Part shown: positions 25,821-45,172 of the stretch, in pieces
Layout of the letters: the number at the start of each line of letters is the position of its first letter
How positions within the stretch are numbered: position 1 is the stretch's first letter
IMG/VR virus record: IMGVR_UViG_2579778634_000020
Direction: 5' to 3' (one strand)
DNA: 46,724 nt
Source of the DNA: a virus
Lineage: Duplodnaviria; Heunggongvirae; Uroviricota; Caudoviricetes
Notes under the pieces: model-generated
Seen by the model: only the letters and a program-made list of their open reading frames with translations
The model's database searches: none
Told to the model about the DNA's origin: nothing
Position numbers and translations under genes: made by a program

Positions 25821-27278
25821 TTAGGAGCGCCAAAAAAAACCTGAAAACAATATAATAACAGGATAAATTTCAAGGCGACCAAGAATCATAGCTATGCACA
25901 TTAAACATTTTGCAATGTCATTAAGCACTCCGAATGACGATGCAGTAGCCCCAAAACCTAATCCCATATTATTAATACATGCAGCCACTGTTGCAAATGA
26001 TGTAAGAAAATCATATCCCATACCATTTAACACCAGTATAAAAAACACCGTGAAGAGAGTATAAAGAAAAAAGAAACTCCATACAGACCTCATTACACGA
26101 TCTGTAACTATCTTCCCTCCTACATTTACACTCAACAACGCTCTGGGATGAGAAAGCTGATTTATCTCGTGTTTGCTTTGTTTGAAAAGTATAAGAAATC
26201 GAAGTGACTTAATTCCACCACAAGTTGAACCTATACATCCCCCAAAGAAACTTGACAACAGCAAAAACACTATCGTGTGCGTGGGCCAACTTGCATAATC
26301 CTGCGTAGCTAAACCATTATCAGTGAGCATGGAGCTGGCAAGAAAAAACGAATGAATAAAACTTCCATGCAAGTCATACATACCTATATGCCAGACCTGG
26401 AAAGAGGTAACAATGATCACCCCTAAGGCTATTAACAGAAAGAAACGAAGTTCAATATCTCTGATTAAAGGTTTTATCGTTTTCCTGCTAATAACAATAT
26501 ACCAAAGAGTGAAGTTGAAAGCCGATAGCAGGGAAAAAGAACCAGCCACCAGCTCAACCAAATAGTTATTAAAATATCCGATACTCTCGCTATGAGTTGA
26601 GAAACCACCAAGCGAAACTGTGGAAATCCCGTGACAAATAGCATCAAACAAAGGCATTCCTGCAAGTCTATAACAGACAATACAAGCAATACCTAATAAA
26701 GAATAAGTTATCCACAGTGTCCGTGACGTATCGGCCAGGCGGGGAGTGAGTTTGTCATCCTTAAATGGCCCCGGCATTTCTGACTGATAAAGCTTTGCAC
26801 CACCAATACCCAATAATGGCAATACAGCAACCGCCAGAACAATAACTCCTAAACCACCTATAAAATTTAACTGTGACCGATAGTACAAATATGCCCGAGG
26901 TAATGAACTAACATCATCAATTACAGTTGCTCCTGTTGTTGTTATTCCAGAAACCCCTTCAAACAGAGCATCAATGAACGTTAAATTAAGTTCTGAGTCA
27001 ATCCATAAAGGGAATGCACTAATAACAGAAAACAAAATCCAAAACATTACAATTATAATAAACCCATCACGGGTACGTAATTGAATGCCAGATTTCTTAG
27101 TTGTATACCACGCTCCGCCACCAATGCAAAAAAATATAACGAAAGTTATAAAGAAAACGAACAGGCTTTTTTCTTTATAAAACAATGCTACAACCATTGG
27201 TGGCAACATTGAAAGACTATAGAGCCAAACCAGGAACCCACACATATGAGTAACAACTCTTACATGAGATGTATTCAT
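25821..27278 (-). CDS. trkG: Trk-system K+ uptake protein TrkG (TrkH/KtrB family); prophage cargo gene. Start taken at MNTSHV.
   Basis: 485 aa polytopic membrane protein matching Rac-prophage TrkG of E. coli K-12 as I recall it. Much lower GC than the flanking phage genes. Confidence 0.9.
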   Translation of the reverse strand: MNTSHVRVVTHMCGFLVWLYSLSMLPPMVVALFYKEKSLFVFFITFVIFFCIGGGAWYTTKKSGIQLRTRDGFIIIVMFWILFSVISAFPLWIDSELNLTFIDALFEGVSGITTTGATVIDDVSSLPRAYLYYRSQLNFIGGLGVIVLAVAVLPLLGIGGAKLYQSEMPGPFKDDKLTPRLADTSRTLWITYSLLGIACIVCYRLAGMPLFDAICHGISTVSLGGFSTHSESIGYFNNYLVELVAGSFSLLSAFNFTLWYIVISRKTIKPLIRDIELRFFLLIALGVIIVTSFQVWHIGMYDLHGSFIHSFFLASSMLTDNGLATQDYASWPTHTIVFLLLSSFFGGCIGSTCGGIKSLRFLILFKQSKHEINQLSHPRALLSVNVGGKIVTDRVMRSVWSFFFLYTLFTVFFILVLNGMGYDFLTSFATVAACINNMGLGFGATASSFGVLNDIAKCLMCIAMILGRLEIYPVIILFSGFFWRS

Positions 27279-27415
27279 ATCTAAATATTCTTTCAATTAT
27301 AACCACCTTGCTGCAATATTATGATTATACTGTATAAAATTTAACTCCTCTTAGATCTTACTTCACTGTTCCTTATGAAACAATCATCAAAATGAATCAT
27401 ATTGTAGTTAAGATT

Positions 27416-31265: not shown

Positions 31266-31537
31266 TTCTTAATCTCTCGATGGCGCAGCGCAGCAGATGC
31301 CAGTTGTTCAGGCTGACGTATGAAGTATAAATAAACTGGCTCCAGTGTAAAGCCCCACCTTAATGGAATAAAAACCAAACAACAGATTGCTGGGATACAA
31401 ACAACGCTTATTATTAAAAGCGGTTAAACAAATTAAATTTTAATGTTATGCAAATCTGCCAGATCACCATAATATCTCATTTGAAAACCGCTGAAATAAC
31501 AACCCTATTAGGGTTAATCATATTAAGGTGAGTAAAT

Positions 31538-31624
31538 ATGGAAAACAACAAATCTGCACATTACGTTCCTTTTTTATCTGTAATACTTTTTGTTTTATGC
31601 TGTGCGTGGGCATTATTTTTATAA
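31538..31624 (+). CDS. 28-aa hydrophobic peptide (MENNKSAHYVPFLSVILFVLCCAWALFL); candidate type I toxin-like small membrane protein
   Basis: RBS AAGGTGAG 7 nt upstream of the ATG. A single TM helix. Sits in a 766-bp AT-rich non-coding island. Confidence 0.4.
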   Translation: MENNKSAHYVPFLSVILFVLCCAWALFL

Positions 31625-31730
31625 AAATATTCACAGATAAAATATACCCGCCAAAGTTGGTTAAGTGCGGGTGCGTTGAGGATGCCTGACTCATCAGAGG
31701 TGGCGAGGGATTTCTCCCTCGCCTGGTCTC

Positions 31731-31883
31731 TCACTCCTCAGGTTCGTAAGCTGTGAAGACAGCGACCTCCGTCTGACCGGTTCGGATTTGTACCTCGCAG
31801 AAGTCTTTCCTTGTTACCAGTGCCATCACAACGACGGTAATACAGATGACAATCAGGGCGGTTAACATCGTCTTTTGCTGCAT
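31731..31883 (-). CDS. hok: Hok/Gef-family type I toxin (50 aa)
   Basis: MQQKTMLTALIVICITVVVMALVTRKDFCEVQIRTGQTEVAVFTAYEPEE closely matches Hok/Gef/RelF toxins (conserved LVTRKxLCEVRIRTGQTEVAVFTAYEPEE). Confidence 0.85.
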   Translation of the reverse strand: MQQKTMLTALIVICITVVVMALVTRKDFCEVQIRTGQTEVAVFTAYEPEE

Positions 31884-32000
31884 CACAGCCTACTTACCCT
31901 TACCTTTCGTTCAAGCGGTAAGGTCACTTTTTCTGTTGTGTGCTAACCAACAAACCTCTTTTATCTGCATTAAAAATCGTTATCATGTCATCCTCAACCT
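31884..32000. promoter_or_regulatory. hok leader region expected to carry the mok overlapping frame and the antisense Sok RNA gene
   Basis: By analogy with the hok/sok loci. The minus-strand upstream sequence contains a GTG-initiated frame ending at TGATG overlapping the hok start. Confidence 0.35.
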
Positions 32001-32031
32001 GTTAATAGCCTATTATGGACTTTAGTAAACA

Positions 32032-33861
32032 ATGAGCACTTCCGCATACAAGAGCAAAATTCGAACACTCCAGTGCGCGTTAAAAAACGGTGAATTTGAA
32101 CCATTCATACAACATATCCGTTTTCCATACTTTAAAAATATAGAGCAGAATGCAAGGATCGATTTTCAGTTCCCTATAACGGCTTTAGTAGGAAAAAATG
32201 GAACTAATAAAAGTTCTGTTATCAAAGCGCTATTTGGTTGCCCACATGGTAAAAATATAACTCGTTATTGGTTCACAACTGAAACAGATGAGTTTCCTGA
32301 CCTAAAACTTGCTGATGGCAGTTCTCTTAAACCTAGATATATATATGGATATAAAAATGCTGATGGCCGTTTAGTTGAAATACTCCAAGCACGTATCAAT
32401 GCTACCAAGAAAACAATCGATTATTGGGAAACAAGTCGACCATCTGTTGGTGATAACATGGAGAGTATTTCGGATGATCTGGGTGCTAATAGTAATGCAA
32501 CCAGATGGAAAAAAATCAAGAAGGGATTGGTTTTCCTAGATTTCAGATCGGAAATAAGTGCATTTGATAGATGTATGTATCACTCTGATTTTAAATTAAG
32601 AAAGAAGAAGAGTGGTGTATTAATTACAAAGCAAGACTATATCAGAAGCAAATCTAAATATATAAAGAAAGCTTTTGATGAAAAGCTAAGTAATTTAAGA
32701 CTCTGGGGGGCGGAAACCATTGTTAAAAATATAACCTTGGCGCCAGAACTAGTTGAGCACGTCTCATTTATATTAGGGAAAAAATATAAAGTCATTAAAT
32801 TTCTTGAGCATCGGTTATTTGGAACCAGAGGAGGAACCGCTTTACTTTCAACTGATAAGTTGAACTATACAGAAGCGTTTGCTGGAAGTGGTGAATTTGC
32901 AATAGTTTCACTAATACTCAATATTTATTCGGCCAAACCTAATTCATTAATTCTTCTTGACGAACCAGAAGTTTCACTTCACCCTGGTGCACAAAAAAGG
33001 ATGATGGATGTTCTGTACTCTATTGTTGAGCAGAAAAAACATCAAGTGGTAATATCAACCCATTCTCCTGTTATTGTGAACACTCTTCCCAAAGATGCCA
33101 TTAAATTATTTGTTTTTGATGAAGAGAGTGAAACAGCTAAAATAGTTCAAAATATAGCACCGGATGAAGCTTTTATAGAGCTAGGGCATGATATTAACAA
33201 GAAAACAATAATTGTAGAAGATAAATTAGCTAAAGCAATTATAGATAAAGCGATTAAAAATGATGAAAGATTAAGCTTATCATTTAGTGTAAGTTATATA
33301 CCAGGTGGTTCGGAGACCATTTTAAGCAAGCATCTTCCCAGTTACGCTGTGGTAGAACGCAATGATATTTTGTTTTTACTTGATGGTGATAAAAACAAAA
33401 AAATAAAACCAGTAAGAATTAGTGAAATTGCTGATGCTGATTTAGTTAATACAATGTGCAAATATTATGGTTGCGAGTTAATTATCAATGCCAGTGGTAG
33501 TAATGGCAAAAAAAATGAACAAGAATCTAATAGACTCAAAAGGCAAGTGCTTGAGTATGCATTCAATAAAGTGCAGTATTTACCATTTGATACTCCCGAA
33601 CAATTACTCATTGAAAAGGCAATTACGCCAAGTGAAAAAGAAATAATTGATTCACAGACCTGGAGTTCTAATGATCCAGAACTGTATAAGAATCAAATAA
33701 GATTATTAGCGCAACACCTGTATGATAAAGAAGAAGTAAATGCAGAGGAAATTTTTTGCCTCCAACAAATGATGACCGCAAGACTTAAAAATGAATTGCC
33801 TGAATTTATAAAAATAAGAAAAATAATTACTCAGGCTCTTGACCGTGGTATCATTAGGTAG
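32032..33861 (+). CDS. OLD-family nuclease-like protein: N-terminal ABC/AAA_21-type ATPase + C-terminal Toprim domain
   Basis: Walker A VGKNGTNKSS; Walker B/D-loop LILLDEPEVSLHP; H-loop VVISTHSP; C-terminal Toprim-like IIVEDKLAK (conserved Glu) and FLLDGDKN (DxD). 609 aa, close to P2 Old (586 aa). About 33% GC versus roughly 50% in the flanks. Confidence 0.75.
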   Translation: MSTSAYKSKIRTLQCALKNGEFEPFIQHIRFPYFKNIEQNARIDFQFPITALVGKNGTNKSSVIKALFGCPHGKNITRYWFTTETDEFPDLKLADGSSLKPRYIYGYKNADGRLVEILQARINATKKTIDYWETSRPSVGDNMESISDDLGANSNATRWKKIKKGLVFLDFRSEISAFDRCMYHSDFKLRKKKSGVLITKQDYIRSKSKYIKKAFDEKLSNLRLWGAETIVKNITLAPELVEHVSFILGKKYKVIKFLEHRLFGTRGGTALLSTDKLNYTEAFAGSGEFAIVSLILNIYSAKPNSLILLDEPEVSLHPGAQKRMMDVLYSIVEQKKHQVVISTHSPVIVNTLPKDAIKLFVFDEESETAKIVQNIAPDEAFIELGHDINKKTIIVEDKLAKAIIDKAIKNDERLSLSFSVSYIPGGSETILSKHLPSYAVVERNDILFLLDGDKNKKIKPVRISEIADADLVNTMCKYYGCELIINASGSNGKKNEQESNRLKRQVLEYAFNKVQYLPFDTPEQLLIEKAITPSEKEIIDSQTWSSNDPELYKNQIRLLAQHLYDKEEVNAEEIFCLQQMMTARLKNELPEFIKIRKIITQALDRGIIR

Positions 33862-34925
33862 TGATTCTGGATGCAGAGGGAAAAATGAAAAAAATCAAAG
33901 TGTTTGACTTCTTTTCCGGTTGTGGTGGAACCAGCCAAGGTTTCCATCAAGCTGGAATGGATATTGTTTTTGGCCTCGATTTCGACGTTGATGCAGCCAG
34001 TTCATTTCGTGCAAATTTCCCGCAGGCTGCTTTTATTAACTCGGACATTAGGTTAATCGACAACAATGCCATAAACAAGTTAGTAAAAAAACATCGTAAT
34101 GATTACATTCTTTTTTCAGGATGTGCGCCTTGTCAACCGTACTCTAAGCAAAACTCAAATAAGAAAAATGATGATCCACGATTAGATCTATTAAAGGAAT
34201 TCAGTCGCTTTGTAGAGCATTATATGCCTGATTTTATTTTTGTTGAAAACGTGCCAGGAATGCAAAAGTTTAACAAAAATGAAGGAACATTCATGATGTT
34301 TTTAGAAATGCTTTCATCAAAGGGATATAGTGTAGATTATAAAGTAATGCCAGCTGCGTGGTACGGTGTACCACAGACGCGAGAAAGATTAGTGCTCATT
34401 GCATCCAAGGATTTTTATGTCGCATTGCCTTCTCCTACACATGGGGTTGGAAATACTCCCTATTCAACAGTAAAGGACTGGATCGCTAATTTACCGAAGA
34501 TAGAAGCAGGAGAAAAGCATAATAGTATTCCTGATCATGAAGCTGCACGCTTATCAGAGCTTAATTTACGTAGAATAAAATGCACTCCTGAAGGTGGAAG
34601 TCGAGAATTTTGGCCAGATGAATTGATTTTAGAATGCCATCGTAACCATAAAGGGCATACAGACGTATATGGACGTTTGAGTTGGGACAAACCAGCCAGC
34701 GGACTAACAACTCGTTGTATTAGCTATTCAAATGGACGTTTTGGACATCCAACACAAAATCGAGCAATATCGGTTCGTGAAGCAGCGTGTCTACAAACAT
34801 TTCCTTTGGATTATAAATTTATTGGTTCTTTGCAATCTCGGGCTCGTCAAATAGGAAATGCGGTCCCTCCGAAGATGTCTGAAACGATTGGAAAACATTT
34901 GCTTAATATAATCAAAGCCTCCTAG
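33861..34925 (+). CDS. DNA (cytosine-5)-methyltransferase. The ORF-track start is a GTG overlapping the upstream TAG; the probable start is ATG 33885 (MKKIKVFDFFSGCGG) with RBS AGGGA.
   Basis: Motif I FFSGCGG, motif IV GCAPCQPYS (catalytic Cys), motif VI ENVPGM, motif X QIGNAVPP. Confidence 0.9.
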   Translation: MILDAEGKMKKIKVFDFFSGCGGTSQGFHQAGMDIVFGLDFDVDAASSFRANFPQAAFINSDIRLIDNNAINKLVKKHRNDYILFSGCAPCQPYSKQNSNKKNDDPRLDLLKEFSRFVEHYMPDFIFVENVPGMQKFNKNEGTFMMFLEMLSSKGYSVDYKVMPAAWYGVPQTRERLVLIASKDFYVALPSPTHGVGNTPYSTVKDWIANLPKIEAGEKHNSIPDHEAARLSELNLRRIKCTPEGGSREFWPDELILECHRNHKGHTDVYGRLSWDKPASGLTTRCISYSNGRFGHPTQNRAISVREAACLQTFPLDYKFIGSLQSRARQIGNAVPPKMSETIGKHLLNIIKAS

Positions 34926-34958
34926 GAGGCTTTATTTTATTGTTATCCCCCCTAGTAG

Positions 34959-35390
34959 TTAATCGTGCTCACCAGACAACCTCCTGAAATTACTCTGGTA
35001 AAATGCCAGTACACGCTGCATAACTTCGCTTTTCCGGCACTCGCGACAGATTATATTCAGGCGCCTGTCGTAGCGGCGTATTTCTCCGTCTGGTAATGAC
35101 CAGATAAGGTCAGGATCAACCACAACCGTTTTTTTCACCTTTGCCCTGGATAGTTTTTTGCGGGCGTTTTGCCAGTCCTTACGAGCCTGCTCAGACGGGA
35201 ATAATCCGTAGCCTGAATTGTAAACATCACCACTGGCGACCAGTTCTCTGGCGAGAGTGCTTATGTAATACCTTGATGCACCGGTTTTAGCCTCCAGAGC
35301 CCGTAACGTCTCGCGACCGCTCAGACGTACAAGTTCAACAACCTGCCCTTTAATTTTTTCCCGCTCTTCTGGTGTAAATACTTTTGCCAT
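34959..35390 (-). CDS. Hypothetical protein (143 aa from MAKVFTPEE; strong RBS GGAGG), nin/replication-proximal
   Basis: The ORF-track start is a TTG. The internal ATG at 35390 has GGAGG 6 nt upstream. Confidence 0.55.
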   Translation of the reverse strand: MAKVFTPEEREKIKGQVVELVRLSGRETLRALEAKTGASRYYISTLARELVASGDVYNSGYGLFPSEQARKDWQNARKKLSRAKVKKTVVVDPDLIWSLPDGEIRRYDRRLNIICRECRKSEVMQRVLAFYQSNFRRLSGEHD

Positions 35391-44796: not shown

Positions 44797-44991
44797 ATGA
44801 GATATGACAATGTTAAACCATGTCCATTTTGTGGTTGTCCATCAGTAACGGTGAAAGACATTTCAGGATATTACCGGGCAAAATGCAACGGATGCGAATC
44901 CCGAACTGGCTATGGTGGAAGTGAAAAAGAAGCGCTCGAAAGATGGAATAAACGAACCACTGAAAATATTAATGGAGGCGTTCATGTATAA
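44797..44991 (+). CDS. ralR: RalR (Lar) restriction-alleviation protein / type I TA toxin (64 aa from MRYDNVKP)
   Basis: MRYDNVKPCPFCGCPSVTVKDISGYYRAKCNGCESRTGYGGSEKEALERWNKR... matches RalR. Confidence 0.9.
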   Translation: MRYDNVKPCPFCGCPSVTVKDISGYYRAKCNGCESRTGYGGSEKEALERWNKRTTENINGGVHV

Positions 44992-45172
44992 AATTACCGC
45001 TACAATTGAAAAGGAAGGTGGCACTCCTACTAACTGGACAAGATATTCAAAATCTAAACTAACGAAATCAGAATGCGAAAAAATGCTCTCAGGTAAAAAA
45101 GAAGCAGGCGTTTCCAGAGAGCAGAAAGTAAAACTGATAAATTTTAATTGCGAGAAACTTCAGTCCTCGTGA
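44972..45172 (+). CDS. ydaC: YdaC (DUF1187) small protein
   Basis: ...MYKITATIEKEGGTPTNWTRYSKSKLTKSECEKMLSGKKEAGVSREQKVKLINFN... The start codon is uncertain (44972 or 44984); the ORF-track start at 44912 overlaps ralR. Confidence 0.6.
   Translation: MEAFMYKITATIEKEGGTPTNWTRYSKSKLTKSECEKMLSGKKEAGVSREQKVKLINFNCEKLQSS

What the first reader, a model, noticed from the sequence alone, without database searches (positions are those of the whole stretch)
31266..32031. 766-bp AT-rich non-coding island carrying a hok-like toxin and a second small hydrophobic peptide gene, immediately upstream of the OLD-MTase module
This island is unannotated by the ORF track because its genes are under 60 aa. On the minus strand at 31731..31883 it encodes a clear Hok/Gef-family toxin (conserved TRKxxCEVxIRTGQTEVAVFTAYEPEE). 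On the plus strand at 31538..31624 it encodes a 28-aa single-TM peptide with a good RBS. A type I toxin-antitoxin locus next to a defence module could act as an addiction or stabilisation element for the island, or as a second abortive-infection layer. The mok/sok regulatory RNAs should lie in 31884..32000.
Basis: partly seen in the sequence, partly recalled or inferred. Interest (0 to 1): 0.6.

Follow-up and report, generated by a model that had tools for sequence, protein, structure and literature searches.

The report
Sok-less hok remnant plus unannotated peptide
The gap holds a real Hok toxin gene that has lost its Sok/Mok control region, so it is an orphan remnant and not a toxin-antitoxin pair, plus a conserved 28-codon membrane-peptide gene that no database annotates.

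Summary
The window is a Rac-like lambdoid prophage of E. coli. Both ORFs exist at the stated coordinates.

The hok ORF (31731..31886, minus) is a clear Hok/Gef member and RefSeq already annotates it. The predicted mok/sok elements are absent. Homology to complete prophage hok/sok loci runs only from 31646 to about 31912-31930. The Rfam sok/leader model scores 100-120 bits in five control loci and nothing here. Stop codons block both possible mok frames, and the sok -10 element is destroyed. The AT-rich sequence 31913-32031 travels only with the divergent OLD-like ATPase/Dcm methylase unit (32 of 5426 E. coli genomes). More distant copies of that unit have no hok.

The locus is therefore a 5'-eroded orphan hok, like K-12 hokD/relF, at the edge of a cargo-exchange hotspot. 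It is not a type I TA.

One unexplained point remains. A 10-nt stretch of the new leader is perfectly complementary to the retained fbi element.

The 28-codon ORF (31538..31624, plus) is the more novel part. It occurs in 1178 of 5426 genomes and was intact in all 142 copies examined. dN/dS is 0.17-0.52 and the Shine-Dalgarno sequence is conserved. It is absent from every protein and family library searched.

The parts
31324..31351 (-). Promoter-like site TTTACA-16-TATACT, about 55 nt upstream of the DUF1367/NinB-like gene. It is part of a block (31266-31352) that is nearly invariant across all lineages.
   Evidence: One search gives 10/12 matches. The PWM score is 11.8 in every lineage, including L009 where the downstream gene differs; the background 90th percentile is 9.5.
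31405..31422 (-). Terminator-like hairpin CGCTT-N8-AAGCG followed by TTGTTTGT. In the most divergent lineage it is kept through two G.U wobbles, which work only in the minus-strand RNA.
   Evidence: plus direct reading of the aligned sequences.
31525..31532 (+). Shine-Dalgarno sequence AAGGTGAG of the small ORF, 5 nt before the ATG.
   Evidence: It is conserved as TAAGGTG or TAAAGTG in 142 loci.
31538..31624 (+). 28-codon ORF MENNKSAHYVPFLSVILFVLCCAWALFL. It has a polar N-terminus and a 19-residue hydrophobic tail. It is a candidate small membrane protein gene and is unannotated.
   Evidence: It occurs in 1178/5426 genomes and is 87 nt in 142/142 copies. There are 13 protein variants and dN/dS is 0.17-0.52. 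It is absent from 15 billion predicted proteins.
31646..31672 (-). hok terminator hairpin (ACCCGC...GCGGGT). It is weakened relative to the canonical AACCCGCTTCGGCGGGTTTTT. It is also the junction with the small-ORF module.
   Evidence: The same junction is present in the complete hok/sok loci L009 and L010.
31669..31684 (-). Retained fbi (fold-back inhibition) element of the hok mRNA 3' end. The canonical part CCUCAACGCACCC lies at 31669-31681. The stretch CAUCCUCAAC at 31675-31684 is complementary to 31989-31998.
31731..31886 (-). hok ORF, 51 codons from the GTG that aligns with the canonical ATG (50 codons from the ATG at 31883). It is intact. Cys31 and the UACG Tyr codon, the A-to-I editing site in other hok genes, are retained.
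   Evidence: The editing site is described (bioRxiv 10.1101/2025.08.07.668861).
31887..31930 (-). Remnant of the hok translation-initiation region and leader. The SD is weakened (AAGGAG to AAGGGT). There is an in-frame TAG at 31890-31892 and a -1-frame TAA at 31894-31896. The sok -35 is TTACCT (31900-31905), and the sok -10 is changed from TAACCT to TCACTT (31924-31929).
   Evidence: The TIR variant is found only in OLD-linked copies.
31913..32031 (.). AT-rich sequence with no homologue in any other hok locus. It replaces the hok promoter, tac, ucb, Sok target, mok start and the sok gene, and it is linked exclusively to the OLD-MTase unit.
31989..31998 (-). 10-nt stretch GUUGAGGAUG in hok-sense RNA, perfectly complementary to the fbi region. 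It may be a tac-like element or it may be coincidence.
32032..34925 (+). Divergent two-gene unit: an OLD-like ABC ATPase/nuclease (32032..33861) and a Dcm-type C5 methyltransferase (33861..34925). GC content is low.
   Evidence: (best PADLOC match HEC-04, also ATPase-Toprim).
34914..34939 (.). Strong symmetric terminator hairpin AAAGCCTCCTAGGAGGCTTT followed by ATTTTA. It closes the OLD-MTase unit and would also block minus-strand read-through towards hok.
   Evidence: read directly from the sequence.

Best explanation
The gap is a junction of three independently assorting modules at a cargo-exchange hotspot. The hotspot lies between the replication genes and the ninB/Q-like genes of Rac-type lambdoid prophages.

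Module 1 (31266 to about 31645) is phage backbone. It carries a conserved promoter-like element for the NinB-like operon on the minus strand. On the plus strand it carries a genuine but unannotated 28-codon gene for a single-pass membrane peptide.

Module 2 (about 31646 to 31912-31930) is the body of a hokW/hokD-type hok gene: a mutated ribosome-binding site, the ORF, the 3' UTR with fbi, and the terminator.

Module 3 (from about 31913) is a low-GC OLD-like ATPase + Dcm methylase unit. Its arrival deleted the 5' two-thirds of the hok leader, including the hok promoter, tac, ucb, the mok start, the Sok target and the sok gene.

Inferred consequence: there is no antitoxin and no mok to couple translation. 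The SD is weakened, the start is GTG, and stops sit immediately upstream. The hok gene is therefore most likely transcriptionally and translationally silent. It would be an orphan remnant like K-12 hokD/relF, and its main present role would be as a patch of homology through which the OLD-MTase cargo moves between prophages. It is not a toxin-antitoxin or addiction module.

Shown: the anatomy, the absence of the regulatory elements, the linkage patterns and the conservation of the small ORF. Inferred: the silence of hok and expression of the peptide.

The confidence of 0.6 is for the whole account, including the inferred silence. The structural part alone (hok truncated, no sok or mok) I put at about 0.9.
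For: Loss of the leader:
- Alignment with the complete loci L002, L003, L009, L010 and L011 shows identity through the ORF, 3' UTR and fbi, and loss of homology upstream of about 31912-31930.
- BLAST hits from phages, plasmids and 190 other E. coli hok loci all stop at 31907-31912.
- Rfam RF01794 scores 101.5-119.9 bits immediately upstream of hok in five control loci. It gives no hit in the window at E<=10 and none in K-12 hokD.
- A promoter PWM recovers the hok promoter (11.5) and the sok promoter (9.8) in L009. It finds nothing above 7.8 in the window leader, where the background median is 7.1.
- Stop codons lie in both upstream frames, and the TIR variant occurs only in OLD-linked copies.
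- In R1, premature stops in mok abolish Hok translation (PMC9841398).

Linkage to the OLD-MTase unit:
- The leader and OLD 5' end occur in only 32 of 5426 genomes, always together with hok, and in 12 IMG/VR contigs with two different left flanks.
- OLD-MTase at 63-69% amino-acid identity has no hok nearby.
- GC falls from 49% to about 36% at about 31900.

Erosion series next to the small ORF:
- 71 loci have hok with the sok leader.
- 15 have hok with the OLD leader.
- At least 5 keep only the 77-nt 3' UTR.
- 15 keep only the terminator hairpin (followed by the Ite system).
- About 20 have nothing.

Small ORF.
Against: - The hok ORF is intact in every OLD-linked copy examined (window, L001, L013, L014 and 12 viral contigs). 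These copies give 6 protein variants with no frameshift or stop. dN/dS against canonical alleles is 0.5-0.75, below 1 (few substitutions).
- The new leader contains a 10-nt perfect complement to the fbi element. The predicted fold of 32000..31643 closes 5' end to 3' end, as a full-length hok mRNA does (z = -6.8). Leader-body interaction energy has z about -5 against shuffles and against natural sequence.
- The promoter scan also fails to find a promoter for the OLD gene, which must have one. Its negative result for hok is therefore weak.
- No expression data were available.
Confidence: 0.6

Rival explanations
1. The hok gene is a working, Sok-independent toxin cassette with a compact new leader. 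A weak promoter next to the OLD start gives an mRNA whose 5' end (GUUGAGGAUG) pairs with the retained fbi element. This locks the mRNA in a closed, untranslatable form. Slow 3' processing, or a stress or phage trigger, opens it. On this view cis-folding replaces the antitoxin.
For: There is a 10-nt perfect complement at exactly the fbi element. The MFE fold closes 5' to 3' with z = -6.8. Interaction energy is -24.9 kcal/mol against -6.6 +/- 3.5 for shuffles, with 0/200 as low, and 0/150 natural segments as low. The K-12 hokD upstream sequence shows no such effect (z = -0.27). The core UUGAGG is the same as in the canonical tac. The ORF is intact in all copies. My own estimate of the chance of a 10-mer complement falling within the roughly 20-nt fbi region is about 0.003.
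Against: The signal disappears when the 10-mer is left out (z = -0.13), so it rests on one short match noticed after the fact. The chance of a 10-mer match anywhere in the hok transcript is about 0.04. The candidate promoters score 5-7.8, at background level. There is no sequence variation among carriers to test covariation. In R1, Hok translation needs mok, which is dead here. Without a tac/ucb switch there is no known route to the open form.
Confidence: 0.13
2. hok is kept silent by a long cis-antisense transcript. Plus-strand transcription starts at the small-ORF promoter or in the hok region and reads through the weak hairpin at 31646-31672. It crosses the whole hok gene in antisense and continues into OLD-MTase. 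The OLD mRNA 5' region would then act as the antitoxin.
For: On the plus strand the hairpin 31646-31672 is not followed by a U-tract. No separate OLD promoter is recognisable in 31913-32031. The next strong plus-strand terminator is at 34914-34939.
Against: There is no direct evidence of such a transcript. In Ite-type loci the small ORF has its own proper terminator, so it behaves as a stand-alone unit. O103-type carriers lack the small-ORF module but keep hok-OLD. The divergent OLD-MTase units have their own AT-rich upstream regions.
Confidence: 0.1
3. One reading: a canonical hok/mok/sok type I toxin-antitoxin locus with regulators in 31884..32000, stabilising the island or adding an abortive-infection layer.
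For: The Hok ORF and the fbi/terminator are canonical. Complete hokW-sokW loci of this same subfamily are functional TAs in lambdoid prophages (PMC8621323).
Against: There is no Sok/leader match, while five positive controls score 100-120 bits. The mok frames are closed, the sok -10 is destroyed and the leader is non-homologous.
Confidence: 0.02
4. The 28-codon ORF is the toxin of a new type I toxin-antitoxin pair. Its antitoxin would be a divergent minus-strand sRNA that starts near the ORF start (TTGTTT-17-TAATAT, PWM 9.9), ends at the hairpin 31405-31422 and overlaps the peptide mRNA 5' UTR.
For: The peptide is small and hydrophobic, in the size range of TisB, ShoB and ZorO (comparison from my own knowledge). 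There are minus-strand promoter-like sites across the start codon. There is a minus-strand hairpin with a U-tract, kept through G.U wobbles in the divergent lineage. The block 31395-31455 is highly conserved.
Against: The minus-strand promoter is not conserved in the L006/L012 lineage. Its -35 is forced by the M-E-N codons. The hairpin fits equally well as a tR2-like terminator of the phage early-right operon. There are no toxicity data.
Confidence: 0.12
5. The 28-codon ORF is not a gene. The conserved sequence is regulatory DNA or RNA of the phage backbone, and the open frame is incidental.
For: Only 16 distinct nucleotide sequences exist. 19% of random 18-substitution derivatives would keep the frame. 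Variable sites by codon position are 6:7:12, a modest bias. The sequence is never annotated or predicted.
Against: dN/dS is below 0.55 in all ten lineage comparisons. The SD and its spacing are conserved while the sequence just upstream diverges and carries indels. In the divergent lineage, homology ends right after the stop codon. The hydrophobic character is kept through the replacements. The ORF is 87 nt, which is below the 90-nt minimum of Prodigal (my own knowledge), and this explains its absence from databases.
Confidence: 0.2

Closest known systems
hokD (relF) of the E. coli K-12 Qin prophage
   Same: It belongs to the same Hok subfamily, with about 93% nucleotide identity over the ORF and 3' UTR. 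It keeps the ORF, fbi and terminator and lacks the Sok/leader element. Neither locus matches Rfam RF01794.
   Different: hokD is truncated further upstream, about 60-70 nt before the start. It keeps the canonical SD and ATG. It sits downstream of relBE on the same strand, so it is co-transcribed (relBEF operon, from my own knowledge). Here the breakpoint is about 25-45 nt before the start and the TIR is mutated. The upstream neighbour is a divergent OLD-like gene, so no same-strand operon feeds it.
hokW-sokW of Sakai prophage 5 and other lambdoid prophage hok/sok loci (L002, L003, L009, L010)
   Same: The position in the prophage is the same (between the replication genes and the nin/Q genes), and the ORF, 3' UTR and fbi are nearly identical. 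L009 and L010 even share the junction with the small-ORF module. HokW is toxic and is neutralised by sokW (PMC8621323).
   Different: Those loci have the full 170-nt leader, with promoter, tac, mok (in frame with hok in L003, L009 and L010) and sok. The window has none of these.
R1 plasmid hok/mok/sok (parB)
   Same: The toxin family and the fbi logic of the 3' end are shared.
   Different: There is no Sok, no mok, no ucb/dcb switch and no recognisable promoter. Post-segregational killing therefore cannot operate by the R1 mechanism (mechanism as summarised in PMC9841398).
Small hydrophobic type I toxins and small membrane proteins of E. coli (TisB, ShoB, ZorO, DinQ and others)
   Same: The 28-aa peptide is similar in size and has a polar head with a single hydrophobic helix. 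It is encoded in an AT-rich intergenic region with a strong SD.
   Different: There is no detectable sequence similarity to any family in Pfam, NCBIfam, PHROGs or PADLOC. No antitoxin RNA has been shown, and toxicity is unknown.
Phage 'morons' and prophage defence hotspots
   Same: The OLD-like ATPase + Dcm unit has low GC, lies on the opposite strand to the phage operon and has its own terminator. The same slot holds IteA/IteS, DUF1971, TehB-like, KilA-N or other genes in related prophages.
   Different: No promoter was recognised for it. Its defence function was not tested here (best PADLOC match HEC-04).

Membership tests
Hok/Gef toxin protein family (Pfam PF01848) | A protein of about 50 aa that matches the family profile above the curated cut-off | tested here: met
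   76 bits against a gathering score of 22, covering profile positions 2-42 of 42. PHROG 251 'MokW-like host killing' at 1.8e-28. RefSeq names it Hok/Gef family protein.
Hok/Gef toxin protein family (Pfam PF01848) | An N-terminal transmembrane helix and a C-terminal domain with the conserved Cys and the Tyr/Cys site used for the disulfide | tested here: met
   The sequence reads ...LIVICITVVVMALV... TRKDFCEV...FTAYEPEE. Cys31 is present and the Tyr codon lies in a UACG context.
Hok/Gef toxin protein family (Pfam PF01848) | Kills or lyses cells when expressed | not testable with these tools
   42 of 45 diverse Hok homologues were toxic in the survey read. This allele (K2M, A6T, I9T, L16I, T21M, L29F, R33Q against canonical) has not been tested.
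hok/mok/sok type I toxin-antitoxin locus | A Sok antisense RNA gene with its promoter, overlapping the hok leader | tested here: not met
   RF01794 gives no hit at E<=10, against 101.5-119.9 bits in five control loci. The sok -10 is changed from TAACCT to TCACTT and the transcribed region is replaced. The best plus-strand PWM score is 6.3, against 9.8 for sok in L009.
hok/mok/sok type I toxin-antitoxin locus | A mok reading frame with its own SD that starts upstream of hok and overlaps it, to which hok translation is coupled | tested here: not met
   The mok start region is absent. An in-frame TAG lies at 31890-31892 and a -1-frame TAA at 31894-31896. No minus-strand ORF of 20 aa or more overlaps the hok start.
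hok/mok/sok type I toxin-antitoxin locus | Pairing of tac (5' end) with fbi (3' end) that closes the full-length mRNA | tested here: inconclusive
   fbi is retained at 31669-31684. The canonical tac GGGUGCUUGAGG is absent. A different 10-nt complement lies at 31989-31998. It is significant only if the fbi region is taken as the prior target.
hok/mok/sok type I toxin-antitoxin locus | Its own constitutive hok promoter about 170 nt upstream of the start | tested here: not met
   The position that corresponds to the canonical promoter lies inside the OLD ORF. The best minus-strand candidates score 5.0-7.8, against 11.5 in L009 and a background median of 7.1. None is reported.
Orphan 5'-truncated hok (hokD/relF type) | The hok ORF, 3' UTR and fbi are retained while the Sok/mok leader is lost | tested here: met
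Orphan 5'-truncated hok (hokD/relF type) | Transcribed as the distal gene of an upstream same-strand operon (relBEF) | tested here: not met
   The upstream neighbour is divergent (OLD, plus strand). The nearest same-strand gene ends at 34959, beyond a strong terminator at 34914-34939.
Type I toxin (for the 28-codon ORF) | A small hydrophobic membrane peptide | tested here: met
   The peptide is 28 aa with a 19-residue hydrophobic C-terminal stretch, conserved across 13 variants.
Type I toxin (for the 28-codon ORF) | A cognate antisense or divergent sRNA that pairs with the toxin mRNA | tested here: inconclusive
   Only consensus-level candidates were found, and the promoter is not conserved in one lineage. 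There is no Rfam match.
Type I toxin (for the 28-codon ORF) | Toxicity on overexpression | not testable with these tools
   This needs inducible expression.
OLD-family ATPase-nuclease defence unit (context) | An ABC-type ATPase with an OLD/Toprim-like region | tested here: met
   Pfam AAA_21 and AAA_15. PADLOC HEC-04 at 1.7e-34, ATPase-Toprim_I-B at 2.8e-26 and Old at 1.7e-16. RefSeq calls it 'ATP-dependent nuclease'. The anti-phage function was not tested.

The most novel reading that the evidence does not exclude
Two readings that the evidence does not exclude would be new.

(a) The eroded hok has been re-wired into an antitoxin-free, self-locking toxin cassette. A new 5' element (31989-31998) would pair with the old fbi. 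The cassette would share a 148-bp control region with a divergent OLD-like nuclease/methylase unit and would act as its suicide effector or stabiliser.

(b) The 28-codon gene, present in about a fifth of E. coli genomes and in no database, is a new prophage-encoded membrane peptide. It could be a type I toxin or an exclusion or lysis modulator that marks the border of a lambdoid cargo hotspot.

The probability given is that at least one of these holds in a functional sense beyond 'the peptide is merely translated'.
Probability: 0.2. Interest if true: 0.6.

Novelty: new member of a known kind. Interest (0 to 1): 0.3.

Why it matters
- For annotation: a 'Hok/Gef family protein' call does not imply a toxin-antitoxin system. 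This copy lacks Sok and mok. Large surveys count Hok coding sequences without checking the regulatory RNA (stated in bioRxiv 10.1101/2025.08.07.668861), so they will include such orphans.
- For phage biology: the locus shows how cargo swapping at the replication/nin boundary of lambdoid prophages erodes a neighbouring hok/sok locus step by step. It also shows how the surviving hok body can serve as shared homology that moves a defence-like unit between prophages.
- For small-protein discovery: a 28-codon gene candidate is present in 22% of complete E. coli genomes but absent from K-12. This shows what length cut-offs in gene callers still hide.

Tried and rejected
- Rfam at gathering and at E<=10 over the region found no sok and only noise.
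- I tested whether the new leader is an inverted, internally deleted copy of hok. Local alignment gives only the 10-mer (41/1000 shuffles as good), and chaining with free long gaps gives 77/1000. The idea was rejected as unsupported.
- I tested whether the leader is co-adapted to the hok ORF beyond the 10-mer. With the 10-mer removed, z = -0.13 to -1.6. Rejected.
- I tested whether the OLD upstream region is homologous among the divergent OLD-MTase units, which would have assigned the 10-mer to the OLD module. The alignment is 54% identical in AT-rich sequence and is uninformative.
- The Pantoea, L037 and L038 OLD loci were searched for hok or the small ORF. Neither was found.
- dN/dS of hok against canonical alleles has too few substitutions to decide between relaxed and maintained selection.
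tblastn in phages and plasmids found only E. coli prophage copies.
- A literature search for the peptide strings found nothing, and a search for IteA/IteS hotspot papers found nothing useful.
- A lipoprotein reading of the peptide was considered. LFAGC occurs in one lineage, and there is a weak PHROG 'Rz-like spanin' hit at E = 0.009. It was rejected because the window allele has LCC with no small residue at position -1.
- L018 matched the 19-nt leader pattern but shows no other similarity to the window, so it is a chance match.
Full report
**Context.** The 766-bp gap is 100% identical to prophage DNA in several complete E. coli genomes. In NZ_CP045277 it lies in a Rac-type lambdoid prophage. 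The local gene order is racR-ydaS-ydaT-ydaU-ydaV-DUF1627-DUF977 on one side. Then come a Dcm methyltransferase, an 'ATP-dependent nuclease', a 'Hok/Gef family protein' and DUF1367-DUF1364-DUF1133, followed by the lysis genes. PHROGs calls the last three NinB/Orf-like, HNH and Q-like. The gap therefore sits at the boundary between the replication genes and the nin/Q genes.

**Check of the observation.** Both ORFs are present as described.
- The minus-strand ORF 31731..31886 matches Pfam HOK_GEF at 76 bits against a cut-off of 22. It is already in RefSeq and in the large protein collection, on 187 contigs.
- The plus-strand ORF 31538..31624 has a good SD.
- The gap is not uniformly AT-rich. GC is 33% at 31300-31600, 49% across hok, and 30-40% from about 31900 through the ATPase and methylase.

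**The hok regulatory region is missing.** I aligned the locus with complete prophage hok loci:
- Escherichia phage Rac MN652886 (L002), where mok and hok are annotated;
- phage Evi (L003, 'MokW');
- three chromosomal loci (L009, L010, L011).

The ORF, the 3' UTR hairpin, the fbi sequence CCUCAACGCACCC and the terminator align at about 90-93%. Upstream of about 25-45 nt before the start codon, the window has unrelated sequence. The canonical loci there have GGGTGCTTGAGG (tac), the Sok target, GAGG-ATG (mok) and the promoters.

Independent BLAST searches agree. Hits from phages, plasmids and 190 other E. coli hok loci all end at window 31907-31912.

As a positive control, Rfam RF01794, which models the 157 nt upstream of hok, scores 101.5-119.9 bits in all five complete loci. 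It finds nothing in the window, even at E<=10, and nothing in K-12 hokD.

A simple promoter PWM recovers the hok promoter (TTGGCG-17-TAGAAT, 11.5) and the sok promoter (TTGCCT-17-TAACCT, 9.8) in L009. In the window leader it finds nothing above 7.8 on either strand, and the median best score of random 300-nt chunks is 7.1.

In the surviving stretch the canonical CAAGGAGAAGCAGGCTATGAAG has become TAAGGGTAAGTAGGCTGTGATG.
- The SD is weakened.
- The start is GTG.
- CAG has become an in-frame TAG.
- GAA has become a TAA in the other possible mok frame.
- The sok -10 TAACCT reads TCACTT.

In R1, premature stops in mok abolish Hok translation (PMC9841398).

**Where the replacement sequence comes from.**
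- Sequence 31905-32130 occurs in only 32 of 5426 E. coli genomes, always next to hok on one side and the ATPase on the other. It also occurs in 12 IMG/VR contigs.
- The mutated TIR occurs only in these copies.
- Two kinds of left flank exist. One is the small-ORF module, as here. The other is a different sequence that begins at 31646, as in O103 strain RM8385. There the hok body has been converted to a canonical allele from about codon 6 onward. This pattern is what recombination within hok would produce, so the hok body appears to act as shared homology.
- ATPase-methylase pairs at 63-69% protein identity in Pantoea and in two viral contigs have no hok and unrelated upstream DNA. Hok is therefore not a component of that system.
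- The unit ends in a strong symmetric terminator at 34914-34939. This terminator would also stop minus-strand read-through from the early operon towards hok.

**An erosion series.** I examined 131 loci that contain the small ORF and have at least 700 nt downstream (contexts):
- 71 have hok with the canonical leader.
- 15 have hok with the OLD-type leader.
- At least 5 retain only the last 77 nt of the hok transcript.
- 15 retain only the terminator hairpin, followed by the IteA/IteS system.
- About 20 have no trace of hok.

The 5' side of hok faces a slot whose content changes between prophages, and hok has been cut back to different extents. The window is one stage of this series. K-12 hokD/relF is an analogous orphan with a breakpoint about 60-70 nt upstream.

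**What argues for residual function.**
- The ORF is intact in all OLD-linked copies, with six protein variants. dN/dS against canonical alleles is 0.5-0.75, but it rests on only 11-15 substitutions.
- More strikingly, 31989-31998 (GUUGAGGAUG in hok sense) is perfectly complementary to 31675-31684, which lies inside the fbi element.
- The predicted fold of 32000..31643 pairs the two and closes the molecule (-130 kcal/mol, z = -6.8).
- Leader-body interaction energy is far beyond shuffled or natural controls (z about -5). The canonical L002 leader gives z = -3.1 and the hokD upstream sequence z = -0.3.
- Removing the 10-mer abolishes the effect. At the DNA level a 10-mer match anywhere in the transcript is not rare (41/1000). 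There is no sequence variation among carriers to test covariation.

I record this as unexplained and give the 'self-locking toxin' reading about 0.13.

**The small ORF.**
- Region 31380-31640 is present in 1178 of 5426 complete E. coli genomes, in identity bands from 100% down to 72%, and is never annotated.
- In 142 copies from chromosomes and viral contigs the ORF is always 87 nt. There are 13 protein variants and 16 nucleotide variants, and the SD is conserved.
- dN/dS is 0.17-0.52 in all ten comparisons between five lineages.
- In the most divergent lineage the upstream 80 nt carries indels and is about 50-60% identical, while the ORF has none. Homology ends right after the stop codon.
- The replacements keep the MENN head, the PFLS(V/I)ILF core and the WA(L/V)FL end.
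- The evidence has limits. The variants are few, and 19% of random derivatives would keep the frame.
- The peptide matches no family in Pfam, NCBIfam, PHROGs or PADLOC. Its three main variants are absent from a collection of 15 billion predicted proteins, and the strings appear in no paper searched.
- It is absent from the K-12 Qin hokD region that I examined.
- Its function is unknown. The most likely reading is a prophage-encoded single-pass membrane peptide expressed from its own promoter in the conserved block 31395-31475. A type I toxin role is possible but unsupported.

**Verdict.** The hok gene is real but already known. The toxin-antitoxin interpretation fails on its defining features. 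The best-supported account is a Sok-less, mok-less hok remnant at a prophage cargo hotspot. It lies beside an independent, conserved and unannotated small-peptide gene. Interest is modest.

Noticed in passing
window 44990-45168 (minus): There is a full-length match to Rfam RalA, the RalR antitoxin sRNA (218 bits against a cut-off of 170). The prophage therefore does carry a complete type I toxin-antitoxin pair, near its integrase end and far from the hok remnant.
   Followed up: no
window 31266-31352 (minus); same block in L004, L006, L008-L012: This block is nearly invariant and contains TTTACA-16-TATACT (PWM 11.8). It stays the same even where the downstream gene differs (DUF1367 in most loci, a 92-aa hypothetical in L009/L010). 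It is probably the promoter and 5' UTR that drive the nin/Q-like operon independently of the early operon.
   Followed up: partly
L002 2191-2271 (minus), the 3' UTR of a canonical prophage hok: The hok 3' UTR (hairpin, fbi and terminator, about 80 nt) matches the Rfam isrK model (Salmonella Gifsy-1 sRNA) over its full length at 33 bits, below the cut-off of 50. Several E. coli loci keep exactly this 77-nt remnant next to the nin region. IsrK may therefore descend from a hok 3' end. The window copy does not match.
   Followed up: partly
window 32004-32016: A perfect 13-bp palindrome TAATAG-C-CTATTA lies 16 nt upstream of the OLD-like ATPase start. It overlaps -10-like hexamers on both strands and could be an operator or a pair of divergent -10 elements.
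   Followed up: no
L003, L009, L010 (hok loci): In these hokW-type loci the upstream ATG is in the same frame as hok. 'Mok' is then an N-terminally extended Hok of 70 aa and not an overlapping out-of-frame product as in L002.
   Followed up: no
window 34914-34939: A symmetric GC hairpin flanked by an A-tract and a T-tract overlaps the methylase stop codon. It looks like a bidirectional terminator, sitting 20 nt from the stop of the convergent DUF977 gene.
   Followed up: no
L004, L007, L008 (IteA/IteS); L011 (DUF1971 + degenerate hok + KilA-N); L012 (TehB-like + IS1): The slot to the right of the small ORF holds different cargo in different prophages, including the annotated anti-phage IteA/IteS pair. 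This is a defence or moron hotspot of Rac-type prophages.
   Followed up: partly
window 25821-27296 (minus): The prophage carries trkG (a Trk potassium transporter), as in Rac of K-12, between the lysis genes and the terminase region (annotation of the identical locus).
   Followed up: no
window 31846-32025 (plus): A 59-codon hydrophobic ORF runs antisense to the hok start and across the new leader, ending 7 nt before the ATPase start. It has no family match and exists only in the 32 OLD-linked genomes. It is probably spurious.
   Followed up: no
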